A program made the position numbers. This document shows, one piece after another, positions 45,001 through 48,000 of a stretch of DNA of 64,000 nt. The first letter of the stretch is position 1, and every line of letters begins with the position of its first letter. Source of the stretch: Escherichia coli O157:H7 (GTDB lineage: Bacteria; Pseudomonadota; Gammaproteobacteria; Enterobacterales; Enterobacteriaceae); the NCBI RefSeq assembly GCF_013167455.1, contig NZ_CP038328.1. One strand, 5' to 3'.

Positions 45001-48000
45001 TCGGGTTGGCGATCGCCGTCGGGTCAAGCATGTTCATCAGGCTGGCAAAACTTTCAGCCTTACCATCATGCGGTGTTGCTGAAAGCATAATCAGCGTATC
45101 GCTGCGCCCGGCGAGCAGTTTTGCCAGTTTACTGCGTAACGAACTGGTTCCACGTTCTGCGACGTTATGGGCCTCATCAATGACAATAATATCCCACCAG
45201 GCATTTTCCAGATGGTGACGATATTCAATGTCTTGTTTCAGCGTATCGATGGAGATAATGGTCTTGTCAAAATAGTGGAACGGGTTGTGGTTGGTTGGGA
45301 TGCGGTTACGCACCTTTTGTAAACCAGCAGAATCCAGGCGGGTCAATGGGATCGCAAAACGGCTCCAGAACTCCTTCTGGAATTGTGTCAGCATCGATTT
45401 AACCGCCAGAACCAGAATACGTTTTCCGCGCCCACGACGGATCAGTTCCGAAACCAGAATACCGGCTTCCAGCGTTTTACCCAGACCAACAGCGTCGGCA
45501 ATGAGTATCCGCTGACGCGGTTGTGCCAGCGCCATCCGCGTAGGATCGAGCTGAAACGGCATGGAATCCATCGCCGCCAGATGACCAAAATGGACTTTAC
45601 TGTCTGTCGGTACGCGTTGGCGTAACTGACTTTCAATATACAACTGTGCCGCTTGATAATTGGCGGATTCATCTTCCACCAAATGCGTTTTTGCGGGATC
45701 CAGGATCTCTACTTTTTGTTCCAGTTTGGTCAGAAATAACCCTTCTTTACCGCGCACAAGCTCTGAAATACCATCGCAGGTCAGCAAATACCCACCATCA
45801 CCACTGTCATCCGCCCGGCGAATACGCCATTCGGCATCACGAATAACCACCCGCATACCAGGTGCATAATTTTGCTTATTCATCGGTTTTTCTGTCTATT
45901 TGGGGCAGTGGCGGTAACGTCATCCTGAAAAATGTGGCGCGGCACACTGCGATAAAAAAGAGGGCCTTAAAGATATCATGAAGGCCCCCGGCAAAGTGAC
46001 AAAATGGGAGGGAATGCGCATAAATTGCGCATGATTTTCAAACAAAAATTATTAAAAAGTGAGCTGGGTCAACTCCCCTGGAAGATATCCCCAGGGGAGC
46101 AATTATTTATCCAGCGATAATATAACTCCTAAGGTCATTACCCGGGGCAACAGCTCGCGCTCGCGTGTTTGCCAGCCGTTCAACTTGCTGCGGTACTCGC
46201 AGGGCAAAATCAAAGAAGGTATCTTCAATACAGCGCCAGTAGCTAAGCCCCATGTCGAGCAGGACATAATGCTGACTGCCATCGCTGAAGGTGACTGTCA
46301 GTTCTCGTCCATGCTCCGTACTCTGGTTATCCCCCGTTAACCAGCTAATTGCTCCCGGCCACGCAGGCCCCAGATATCCTTCTTCAAGTAAAGTGGTCAC
46401 AACCTGCTGACGATCTTCCTCATTAAGCCACGCGTTATAGAGAGCGTCGTGTTGGCGAGAGTTGTAATCCAATTTTTTGACGCAAACAGTGAGGCTGGCG
46501 CGTTCCGCCATTCCCTGTTCAACCAGCTCGGTTAAGATTTCACCTAACAAACGCGCCGTGAATGGGCTATTAAGATAACGATCGCTGTACTCAACATGCG
46601 TTATCTCTTTGTGGCGGGTAAATGCCTGCTTCCAGCCAGCGTGCTGTTGCGTGACTAACGACCAGAAACGCGAACCAAAACCTTCCAGCGGCCCGTCCAG
46701 TTGTTCACAGAGATTGATGCGCACCGCCCCGGTGGGTAAGGCGGGCAGTAAATCTTCTGCACTTAAGGTCTGACCCGAGAAGGTTTTTCCGGACGTTCCT
46801 TTAAGTGTCACTACTGGTGAAGACGCACTTTGTCCCCATAATTCACCAGGTGCAACGGTAGCGCTGTCGTCTGCGGCCCACTGTTGGCTTTGCCCTTCGC
46901 GAGTCACCTGCGCAAGCCAGCGCCCCTTTCCTTGCATGAGCTGCGCAGTGGCAATGGATTTCACTTGTAAGCGACCTCCCGGCATCGCCGCCAACGCGGA
47001 AAGCTGATGTCTGGAGCTATCAGTTAAGTTTGCCAGCGGCGTGGCCACCAGCAACTCAACATTCCCACCGGAGGAGGCAAACTGGAGCAACTCTTTAAAT
47101 AATGGCCATTGGGCAAAGTCCCACTGTTCCTGCGGCCCCGCAAGAACCAGCGAGCAGGAGTCATAAATCTCGCTGTTCAGGCATTGCGCAATACGTAAAC
47201 TCAGAGGGTTAGTTTCAACCCGGCTACCATCGCCGAAGTACTGATATTCTGGCGCGAGGTTAAGTCGCTGCAACCGTACATTGGTAAGCAGGGTTAATGC
47301 ATGGTGACGATCTAATCTGTTGACATAATGCTGACTGTCGTAGCTGAGCAAGCAGTGGTGACAGAATTTATCGCAACTGCAATCGAGCAATTTTCTGGCG
47401 TAATTAAAGACATCAGCCCAATGGTCGATCAATTGCACTGCATAACCTGCACCACCCGCATTATTGTCGTAAATGAAGATGGAATATCCGGTATAGCCAT
47501 TGATATCGCGCGCTTGCTGCGTCGTCACGCCCAGCTCAGTATTTTCGATACCCAATTTATGCGCTAACCCTTCACGCAAAGCGACCGCAAGGGAACGCGC
47601 GGCAACCTCATCACGGATCAACAGGCCATTATCATCATTGAGTTGCAGCTCAACCATATCTGTACGACTGCTATATCCCAACCACAGATCTTTATGCACA
47701 TGACCGTGGCACAATTTATTGCTCCCCTGACGATCGTTACTGCCCCCTCGCAACAGGTAATGCGTATTTTCCCTCTCTGGGTTCTTTAGATTTTCAGGGG
47801 TACGCTGGGGTTGAGTTTGAGATTCTGCCCGACCACATGAGAGGCAAATTGCGTAGCCGTGCCCAAATTCCCCTTCACTGAAGTGGAACAATTCCCCACT
47901 ATGGCTAAAACGGTAACGTCCTAGCCCAGCATCGGGTAAAGAAACCCACACCGAAGACGGTACAAGAACACGTGGATCTTTCCAGGGAAGTTGTGCAGGC

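What the first reader, a model, noticed from the sequence alone, without database searches (positions are those of the whole stretch)
45884..46106. 223-bp gap with hairpins separates the two minus-strand units
Directly after the 2107-aa gene stop there is a perfect hairpin (tcccctgg-aagatatcc-ccagggga, 46073-46097), and a second imperfect one near 45957-45984. This is the only sizeable intergenic region inside the 26-kb minus-strand block, and it presumably holds a terminator for the upstream pair and the promoter for the SNF2 operon.
Basis: seen in the sequence. Interest (0 to 1): 0.3.

Follow-up and report, generated by a model that had tools for sequence, protein, structure and literature searches.

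The report
Terminator-promoter junction between two defence operons

Summary
The window is O-island 172 of E. coli O157:H7. The gap (45884-46106) lies between druE (Druantia III) and armA (ARMADA II). Both hairpins exist, within 1-5 nt of the stated coordinates.

Hairpin 1 (46100-46072) has no U-tract. Its structure is kept in three different sequence versions across Enterobacterales. Hairpin 2 (45989-45960, then U6) is the canonical intrinsic terminator, but its stem exists only in the E. coli-type sequence.

The DNA from hairpin 1 to the armA ATG travels with armA. It is found behind druE or behind an unrelated, uncharacterised gene pair.

A published BAC clone holding exactly this gap plus armABCD, oriented against Plac, confers phage defence, so a working arm promoter very probably lies in the gap.

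Two promoter candidates cannot be separated without transcript data. One is an extended -10 (TGaTATCTT, 45978-45970) in the loop of hairpin 2, kept in 35 of 36 variants. The other is TTGACC-15-TAATTT (46072-46046).

An ~86-nt sRNA or attenuator reading is possible but unsupported. No transcript mapping was found. This is an ordinary element of low to moderate interest.

The parts
46107..46109 (-). Stop codon (TAA) of druE (Z5898 / ECs_5260), the Druantia III helicase-nuclease.
   Evidence: ORF 46107..52430. PADLOC DruE3 match with E = 0. Sakai annotation.
46072..46100 (-). Hairpin 1. A 12-bp RNA stem with a perfect 9-bp core (46099-46091 paired with 46081-46073) and a 5-9 nt loop. No U-tract follows it. 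It probably blocks 3' exonucleases and/or acts as a weak terminator for the upstream operon.
   Evidence: Three sequence versions keep the stem. Cells paired 94%, and 4 of 8 pairs show changes on both sides. Single variants give U-G wobbles on the minus-strand RNA.
46051..46075 (-). Mini-hairpin GAGUUGACCCAGCUC (46075-46061) followed by ACUUUUUAAU. It is a weak terminator-like site that overlaps the 3' end of hairpin 1.
   Evidence: Terminator scan. Most variants in the B and C groups keep the pairing (read by eye). It is absent in the Serratia/Yersinia group.
46046..46072 (-). Promoter candidate P1. The -35 is TTGACC (46072-46067), the spacer is 15 nt and the -10 is TAATTT (46051-46046). The predicted start is near 46039.
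   Evidence: Best position-weight-matrix (PWM) score in the O157, Siccibacter and Mangrovibacter types. TTGAC is present in 33 of 36 variants. There is no matching -10 in the Serratia/Yersinia type. The box is absent in L097 and L115, which still carry armA.
46014..46032 (-). Small perfect hairpin or palindrome, AUGCGCA-AUUUA-UGCGCAU.
   Evidence: In A3, 79% of cells are paired, mostly kept through G-U pairs, and the stem is lost in the D group.
46006..46012 (-). Single-stranded C-rich motif CCCUCCC, resembling an anti-Shine-Dalgarno sequence. It lies between the small hairpin and hairpin 2.
   Evidence: It is not conserved: ACAUUCC in the B and C groups, GUCUCCC in D.
45954..45989 (-). Hairpin 2 plus U6, a canonical Rho-independent terminator. 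The 5' arm is 45989-45981, the 12-nt loop 45980-45969, the 3' arm 45968-45960 and the U6 run 45959-45954.
   Evidence: dG -15.1, z = -3.1. The stem forms only in the E. coli type and in L093/L114, and 62% of cells are paired overall. The scan missed it because the loop is longer than 8 nt.
45970..45978 (-). Promoter candidate P2, an extended -10 motif TGaTATCTT lying in the loop of hairpin 2. The predicted start is near 45963, inside the 3' arm, so its transcripts could not form hairpin 2.
   Evidence: TG.TAnnnT is present in 35 of 36 distinct variants. The only one lacking it is the armA-less remnant. T, G, T and A are invariant or nearly so in A3. The PWM score is modest.
45942..45973 (-). 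Block kept at sequence level, TCTTTAA-N3-CC-N-CTTTTTTATCG-N-AGT-N-TGC. It always lies 91 nt upstream of the armA ATG. It includes the 3' arm and U-tract of hairpin 2.
   Evidence: Identical in the 9 sequences of A2, which were collected independently of the pattern. The pattern then found 44 metagenome contigs. The distance to armA is fixed.
45905..45950 (-). Conserved stem-loop of the armA 5' leader. GCAGUG (45950-45945) pairs with CACUGC (45910-45905). An alternative inner register pairs 45947-45938 with 45919-45911.
   Evidence: 100% and 98-100% of cells are paired, with G-C to A-U and C-G to U-A double changes. A GCAG...CUGC hairpin sits at the same place in the Vibrio and Enterovibrio gaps.
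45881..45898 (-). armA start region ACAGAAAAACCGAUG. The ATG is at 45883-45881. There is no Shine-Dalgarno sequence, and the stretch is the same in every variant that has armA (identical in the 8 armA-bearing sequences of A2).
   Evidence: ArmA matches SNF2/DrmD-like models.

Best explanation
The gap is the junction between two co-directional anti-phage operons, druHE (Druantia III) and armABCD (ARMADA II).

Reading the minus strand, the druHE transcript first runs into a very stable G+C-rich hairpin 7 nt after the stop codon (hairpin 1). Hairpin 1 has no U-tract, so it most likely protects the mRNA 3' end and slows or weakly stops RNA polymerase. Polymerases that continue meet a canonical intrinsic terminator about 85 nt further on (hairpin 2 plus U6).

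armABCD has its own promoter inside the gap. My preferred site is the extended -10 TGaTATCTT in the loop of hairpin 2. Transcripts starting there begin inside the 3' arm, cannot form the terminator, and carry an ~80-nt leader with a conserved stem-loop and an A-rich start region without a Shine-Dalgarno sequence. The alternative site is TTGACC-15-TAATTT, directly after hairpin 1. That would give a ~155-nt leader that has to read through hairpin 2.

Shown: the anatomy, its conservation and covariation, the linkage of the module to armA, and (from the literature) that gap plus armABCD is sufficient for defence. Inferred: which hairpin terminates, and where transcription starts.
For: Identity of the locus.

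Hairpin 1 is real and selected as RNA. Cells paired 94%, and 4 of 8 pairs changed on both sides.

Hairpin 2 is a canonical terminator by sequence. It has a 9-bp stem, dG -15.1, and U6 follows.

The module from hairpin 1 to the ATG stays with armA whether druE or the unrelated gene Y lies upstream.

The promoter-like TG.TA...T motif is kept in 35 of 36 variants. It is lost only in the variant that has lost armA.

L097 has divergent upstream genes and L115 has an IS upstream. Both lack TTGAC but keep the extended -10 and the leader.

The leader stem covaries and recurs in Vibrio.

Functional evidence. pARMADA is window 29636-46106, that is the gap plus armABCD. It sits antisense to Plac in a single-copy BAC, protects against 13 phages, and needs all four arm genes. 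The delta-druHE strains of ATCC 8739 and EDL933 keep ARMADA-dependent protection.
Against: No transcript start or end has been mapped here.

Neither promoter candidate is strong. P2 has no usable -35 and would start on a pyrimidine. P1 has a 15-nt spacer and a 3/6 match at -10.

Hairpin 2 has a 12-nt loop, which is long for a terminator. It is absent from most orthologous junctions, so it cannot be the ancestral terminator.

The sequence-level invariance of its 3' arm and U-tract is not explained by this model beyond 'leader or operator'.

In pARMADA, read-through from unknown vector promoters cannot be formally excluded. In the delta-druHE strains the druH promoter remains upstream.
Confidence: 0.7

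Rival explanations
1. The gap encodes a small RNA or a transcription-attenuating leader. Promoter P1 (TTGACC-15-TAATTT) would start transcription near 46039, and most transcripts would stop at hairpin 2. This would release an ~86-nt RNA (46039-45954) made of a 5' hairpin, a single-stranded CCCUCCC stretch and a terminator with a U-tail. armABCD would be expressed only by regulated read-through.
For: P1 is the best-scoring sigma-70 site in the gap. The 86-nt RNA folds as a textbook sRNA, dG -24.3, z = -3.3. There is a sub-threshold Rfam match to RF00519 over exactly this span, 25.1 bits, E = 0.009 for a 1-kb search. The small hairpin tolerates only wobble-compatible changes in groups A to C.
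Against: The Rfam score is far below the gathering score of 41. At window scale the E-value would be about 0.6. The terminator stem and the CCCUCCC motif are not conserved in orthologous junctions. No alternative antiterminator pairing was identified. No sRNA is recorded at Sakai 5373685-5373907 in the Hfq-CRAC or RNase E-CLASH supplements that could be read. Only one copy occurs per island and there are no paralogues. A strong terminator between P1 and armA fits poorly with robust ARMADA activity from a single-copy clone.
Confidence: 0.18
2. There is no internal promoter. druHE-armABCD would be one six-gene transcript, and the hairpins would only be processing or stability elements. armABCD expression in the published clone would come from vector read-through.
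For: druE and armA are adjacent and co-directional from E. coli to Vibrio. In a gammaproteobacterial MAG (L019) the druE stop overlaps the armA start, so there is one operon there. The two systems act synergistically. No strong sigma-70 consensus is present in the gap.
Against: The same junction module precedes armA behind an unrelated gene pair and behind divergent genes (L097) or an IS (L115), where no druHE promoter exists. The pARMADA insert starts 1 nt after the druE stop, is antisense to Plac, and is fully active. A canonical terminator sits in the E. coli gap.
Confidence: 0.08
3. The conserved module is primarily a DNA-level element. It would be a recombination junction or cassette boundary that lets different partner cassettes (druHE variants or the X-Y pair) be swapped in front of armABCD.
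For: The first 300 residues of ArmA are 95-100% identical, while the upstream partner ranges from non-homologous to 100%. L093 is a mosaic, with a B-like hairpin 1, an A-like middle and a C-like leader. Breakpoints fall at or near hairpin 1.
Against: Homologous recombination in any conserved stretch gives the same pattern. No recombinase core sites were found: there is no GTTRRRY/RYYYAAC pair as in integron attC sites, and the stretch after hairpin 1 reads GTTGACC (read by eye on the sequence). The wobble-only variants in hairpin 1 pair only on the transcribed strand, which points to RNA-level selection.
Confidence: 0.04

Closest known systems
Rho-independent (intrinsic) terminators of E. coli, here placed at an inter-operon junction next to the promoter of the following operon
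   Same: Hairpin 2 is a G+C-rich 9-bp stem directly followed by UCUUUUUUAU. It is on the coding strand, 118 nt after a stop codon. A promoter-like motif for the next operon overlaps it.
   Different: The loop is 12 nt, whereas 3-8 nt is usual. The stem is lineage-specific, while its 3' arm and U-tract are invariant for some other reason. Termination has not been measured.
3'-terminal stem-loops that stabilise upstream mRNA (as REP/BIME elements do)
   Same: Hairpin 1 is a very stable G+C-rich stem right after the stop codon without a U-tract. It is conserved as a structure.
   Different: It is not a REP element. It occurs once per island, with a median of 1 place per genome, and shows no REP consensus.
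sRNAs encoded in EHEC O-islands (Esr41/EcOnc14 and other EcOnc RNAs)
   Same: An intergenic location in a horizontally acquired island. A ~70-90-nt unit ending in a G+C-rich palindrome plus poly-U. A C-rich single-stranded stretch.
   Different: Esr41 lies in OI-43/48, between z1181 and z1182, not here. No transcript or Hfq/RNase E cross-link is recorded for this gap.
Rfam RF00519 (suhB / mmgR, an alphaproteobacterial sRNA)
   Same: The same layout of a 5' hairpin, a CCUCCC motif and a terminator. Alignment over 46037-45947 scores 25.1 bits.
   Different: The score is below the gathering score of 41. The taxon is wrong, and the motifs are not conserved among orthologues of the gap.
The druHE / armABCD operon organisation described for OI-172 and ATCC 8739 (bioRxiv 10.1101/2025.09.22.677730 and 10.1101/2025.09.15.676423)
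   Same: The same locus. The authors treat the two as separate operons and used exactly this gap as the 'native promoter' of ARMADA II.
   Different: Neither paper describes the hairpins, the terminator, a promoter position or the conservation of the junction.

Membership tests
Rho-independent terminator (hairpin 2, 45989-45954) | G+C-rich stem-loop on the transcribed strand downstream of a stop codon | tested here: met
   A 9-bp stem with 6 G-C pairs, dG -15.1, z = -3.1. The loop of 12 nt is longer than typical.
Rho-independent terminator (hairpin 2, 45989-45954) | A U-tract within 0-2 nt of the stem | tested here: met
   UUUUUU at 45959-45954 follows the stem directly.
Rho-independent terminator (hairpin 2, 45989-45954) | Transcripts end there in vivo | not testable with these tools
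   No Term-seq or Northern data were found.
Rho-independent terminator (hairpin 1, 46100-46072) | A U-tract within 0-2 nt of the stem | tested here: not met
   The stem is followed by UUGACCCAGC. The first U-run starts 13 nt later. The same holds in all sequence versions.
Sigma-70 promoter | -35 and -10 hexamers at 16-18 bp spacing, or an extended -10 (TGnTATAAT) | tested here: inconclusive
   P1 is TTGACC-15-TAATTT. P2 is TGaTATCTT without a -35. The scan's own hit is TTGTCA-16-CATGAT. The number of sites equals the shuffle expectation.
Sigma-70 promoter | Drives expression of the downstream operon when isolated | not tested
   Only indirect evidence exists. The published clone of the gap plus armABCD is active when antisense to Plac in a BAC.
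Rfam RF00519 suhB/mmgR | Score at or above the family's gathering threshold (41 bits) | tested here: not met
   25.1 bits.
Known EHEC island sRNA (Esr41 / EcOnc) | Maps to the published locus, or is detected in Hfq or RNase E cross-linking data | tested here: not met
   Esr41 is in OI-43. No entry at Sakai 5373685-5373907 appears in the supplements held. The PNAS 2020 supplement is not held.
Transcription attenuator leader | A terminator between the promoter and the first gene, conserved among orthologous leaders, with an alternative antiterminator fold | tested here: not met
   The terminator stem is present only in the E. coli type. No competing fold was found. The 19-codon ORF shows no protein-level constraint and is broken in the D group.
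REP/BIME repeat | Many dispersed copies per genome | tested here: not met
   The median is 1 place per genome, and always within this island.

The most novel reading that the evidence does not exclude
In the E. coli lineage, an invariant armA leader sequence would have been turned into a strong terminator by changes in the opposite arm only. This would create either an ~86-nt island-encoded sRNA or a conditional read-through switch. [quoted passage not shown]
Probability: 0.15. Interest if true: 0.5.

Novelty: new member of a known kind. Interest (0 to 1): 0.25.

Why it matters
[quoted passage not shown] Laboratories already use precisely this 223 bp as the 'native promoter' of ARMADA II.

Three things help the design of constructs, deletions and expression studies. 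The gap holds two hairpins of different evolutionary status. A conserved extended -10 motif sits inside the terminator loop. The ~80-155-nt leader is conserved. For example, a delta-druHE scar leaves the druH promoter facing hairpin 1.

Beyond that, it is a normal inter-operon junction.

Tried and rejected
(1) My first guess was that the gap encodes Esr41, a motility sRNA, because DruE (Z5898) is annotated as 'motility-regulating'. This is wrong: Esr41 lies in OI-43.

(2) Rfam search. Only a sub-threshold suhB/mmgR match and noise.

(3) Literature and supplement searches for transcription starts or sRNAs at Z5898/Z5899, ECs_5260/5261 and Sakai 53737xx-53739xx. Nothing was found. My first search used the wrong locus tags (ECs5257/5258) and was corrected.

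(4) Small ORFs. A 41-codon TTG ORF (45920-46045) is interrupted by a stop in the Siccibacter type (read by eye). A 19-codon ORF (MISLRPSFLSQCAAPHFSG) is intact in all A to C variants, but it varies mostly non-synonymously and is frame-shifted in the D group. A leader peptide is unlikely.

(5) No tRNA or tmRNA genes.

(6) By-eye checks for sigma-32, sigma-28, sigma-54, CRP-like (TGTG-N6-CACA, wrong spacing, not conserved) and IHF motifs. None fits or is conserved. These are not tool-tested beyond the alignments.

(7) An integron attC-like site. There are no core sites (by eye).

(8) L117, which seemed to define a 5' boundary of the module, is probably a chimeric metagenome contig. A Firmicute-like flavodoxin gene abuts the E. 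coli sequence, so it was not used as evidence.

(9) The terminator scan missed hairpin 2 because of its loop limit. The seven sites it reported in 45000-47000 are mostly inside coding sequence.
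Full report
WHAT THE LOCUS IS

The window is 100% identical to E. coli O157:H7 chromosomes. The minus-strand block 29636-55780 contains six genes:
- DruH (52421-55780) and DruE (46107-52430). Together they form Druantia type III, with PADLOC E = 0 for both.
- ArmA, an SNF2/DrmD-like protein (43025-45883).
- ArmB, a type IIG/DrmMI-like methyltransferase (38088-43022).
- ArmC, a DruE-like helicase with an MrfA Zn-binding domain (31747-38088).
- ArmD, a UvrD/GajB-like protein (29636-31750).

These assignments rest. This is O-island 172 (SpLE6), genes Z5897-Z5902 or ECs_5259-5264. Two 2025 preprints describe it as a Zorya II - Druantia III - ARMADA II array with synergy between the last two. 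The finding is the druE-armA intergenic space.

THE OBSERVATION

The gap is exactly 223 bp. It is the only real intergenic space in the 26-kb block.

Hairpin 1 has perfect 9-bp arms at 46073-46081 and 46091-46099. As RNA it is a 12-bp stem spanning 46100-46072.

Hairpin 2 is a 9-bp stem at 45989-45960, dG -15.1 kcal/mol. On the minus strand it is followed directly by UUUUUU at 45959-45954.

The gap folds better than all 200 shuffles, z = -3.35. The chance of a perfect 9-bp hairpin in a given 223 bp of this window is about 0.01.

WHICH HAIRPIN IS THE TERMINATOR

Hairpin 1 is followed by UUGACCCAGC, not by a U-tract. It therefore fails a defining feature of intrinsic terminators. A weak mini-hairpin plus U5 overlaps its 3' end. 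Hairpin 2 meets the sequence definition, apart from a long 12-nt loop.

COMPARATIVE EVIDENCE

The gap is present in 534 of 5426 complete E. coli genomes, and in 506 of them it is at least 99% identical.

A scan of species-representative genomes with ArmA gave 80 loci. A DNA-pattern scan of metagenomes gave 44 more. Together they yield 36 distinct variants of the junction.

(i) The sequence from hairpin 1 to the armA ATG is linked to armA, not to druE. It follows druE in Escherichia, Siccibacter, Serratia, Yersinia and an Enterobacter MAG. It follows an unrelated, uncharacterised gene pair (X of ~1570 aa and Y of 743 aa) in Enterobacter wuhouensis, Mangrovibacter and Citrobacter. E. coli 1218KP has X-Y, then a 75%-identical remnant of the module, then an IS fragment and no armA.

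(ii) Hairpin 1 exists in three sequence versions that all pair: CUCCCCUGG/CCAGGGGAG, CUCCCCCAC/GUGGGGGAG and CCCCCUGCC/GGCAGGGGG. On a 33-sequence alignment, 94% of cells pair and 4 of 8 pairs show changes on both sides. The whole-structure covariation score exceeds all 500 shuffles and all slid controls. Single variants give U-G wobbles that pair only on the minus-strand RNA. Hairpin 1 is therefore selected as an RNA structure.

(iii) Hairpin 2 is not conserved. Its stem forms only in the E. coli type and in L093/L114 (dG about -7 for the truncated test segment, against 0 to -1.8 elsewhere). Only 62% of cells pair. Yet its 3' arm, the U-tract and the next 15 nt belong to a block that is identical in the nine independently collected sequences of A2. 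The block is TCTTTAA-N3-CC-N-CTTTTTTATCG-N-AGT-N-TGC, and it lies at a fixed 91 nt from the ATG. So the E. coli terminator pairs a lineage-specific 5' arm with a sequence conserved for another reason.

(iv) Downstream, a leader stem (GCAGUG/CACUGC, 45950-45945 with 45910-45905, or an inner register) is paired in 98-100% of cells, with G-C to A-U and C-G to U-A double changes. The non-homologous druE-armA gaps of Vibrio and Enterovibrio also hold a post-stop hairpin and a GCAG...CUGC hairpin just before the armA start.

(v) In one gammaproteobacterial MAG the druE stop overlaps the armA start, so there is no gap at all.

IS THERE A PROMOTER

The consensus scan finds no more sites than shuffles do. 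A simple PWM of my own ranks TTGACC-15-TAATTT (46072-46046, candidate P1) first in the O157, Siccibacter and Mangrovibacter types. The Serratia/Yersinia type has no -10 at that spacing.

A second candidate (P2) is an extended -10, TGaTATCTT (45978-45970), lying in the loop of hairpin 2. The motif TG.TAnnnT is kept in 35 of 36 variants. The one exception is the armA-less remnant. The TG and TA lie outside the pattern used to collect the sequences.

L097 has divergent genes upstream, and L115 has an IS3-family element upstream. Both lack the TTGAC box but keep P2 and the leader. For this reason I slightly prefer P2. A start near 45963 would lie inside the 3' arm. arm transcripts would then escape the terminator that stops druHE read-through.

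PUBLISHED FUNCTIONAL EVIDENCE

In bioRxiv 10.1101/2025.09.15.676423, ARMADA II of E. coli NCTC 12900 was cloned 'under its native promoters' in single-copy pBeloBAC11. It protected BL21-AI against 13 phages, and all four genes were needed.

The primers in Table S4 of that paper map to window 46106-46084 and 29636-29658. The insert is therefore exactly this 223-bp gap plus armABCD.

The vector tails show that the insert is antisense to Plac and that the T7 and SP6 promoters were removed. This is my reading of the primer tails against the standard lacZ-alpha sequence, which is established knowledge and not a tool result.

Precise delta-druHE deletions that leave the gap intact retain ARMADA protection in ATCC 8739 and EDL933. 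This is weaker evidence, because the druH promoter remains upstream. Together the results make a working promoter in the gap very likely, but nobody has mapped it.

THE sRNA / ATTENUATOR READING

If P1 is used, an 86-nt RNA (46039-45954) with a textbook sRNA shape results. Rfam aligns RF00519 (suhB/mmgR) to exactly this span, but at 25.1 bits against a gathering score of 41.

Several results count against this reading:
- The terminator stem and the CCCUCCC motif are not conserved.
- No antiterminator fold was seen.
- No record exists in the Hfq-CRAC or RNase E-CLASH supplements available.

My initial guess that this was Esr41 was wrong.

VERDICT

The gap is a real, conserved and structured inter-operon junction.
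- Hairpin 1 is a conserved 3' structure without a U-tract.
- Hairpin 2 is an E. coli-specific canonical terminator.
- The arm promoter and a conserved leader share the same ~190 bp.

It is a new, undescribed example of a well-known kind of element. Interest is low to moderate.

Noticed in passing
L002:12237-19174 (minus strand). Also L004:9058-16001, and L007, L008 and L016 at 1-3750.: An uncharacterised two-gene cassette, X (~1570 aa) and Y (743 aa). It has no hit in Pfam, PADLOC, NCBIfam or PDB sequences and no similarity to DruH or DruE. It occupies the DruHE position directly upstream of the same junction and armABCD in Enterobacter wuhouensis, Mangrovibacter and Citrobacter. It stands alone at the same leuX/nanS island in about 120 E. 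coli genomes. It is a candidate alternative partner of ARMADA II, or a new defence pair.
   Followed up: partly
L015:3855-3983, L017:3853-3983, L019:3977-3980: The druE-armA adjacency persists at ~50% protein identity in Vibrio and Enterovibrio. Their gaps are 127-129 nt, non-homologous, and again hold two hairpins. In a gammaproteobacterial MAG the druE stop overlaps the armA start. [quoted passage not shown]
   Followed up: partly
window 43025-46109 and the loci: The first 300 residues of ArmA are 95-100% identical in all 50-odd loci. The last 400 residues of the upstream DruE range from 39 to 100%, or are replaced by Y. L093/L114 carry a mosaic junction, with a B-like hairpin 1, an A-like middle and a C-like leader. 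Recombination repeatedly breaks in or next to the gap.
   Followed up: partly
window 45920-45979 (minus strand): A 19-codon ORF (MISLRPSFLSQCAAPHFSG) starts in the loop of hairpin 2. It is intact and of equal length in all 28 A to C type variants, and its stop codon differs (TGA or TAG) at the same position. Its changes are mostly non-synonymous, and it is frame-shifted in the Serratia/Yersinia type.
   Followed up: partly
window 45921-45928 (minus strand): A GGA-containing motif sits in the loop of the conserved leader stem: CAGGAUGA in the O157 type and CGGGAUAG in the B and C types. It is reminiscent of CsrA sites but absent in the Serratia/Yersinia type. This was not tested.
   Followed up: no
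window 46107-52430: RefSeq names DruE 'motility-regulating DEAH-box RNA helicase' in some genomes. The name comes from the 2013 Z5898 study (PMC3681947). The same protein is the Druantia III effector, so the annotation is misleading for a DNA-targeting defence helicase.
   Followed up: partly
L117:640-720: The metagenome contig QZMH01005423.1 joins a low-GC, Firmicute-like flavodoxin gene to the E. coli junction at 'TTTTTGTTTGAAAATC'. It is probably an assembly chimera.
   Followed up: partly
window 3223-3252, 9453-9481, 14900-14920, 27103-27126, 59476-59501, 60895-60920: Other perfect hairpins of 9 bp or more in the window, several of them at gene ends. For example, 59476-59501 lies just after zorE and 27103-27126 just after the ORF ending at 27097. 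They are probably terminators.
   Followed up: no
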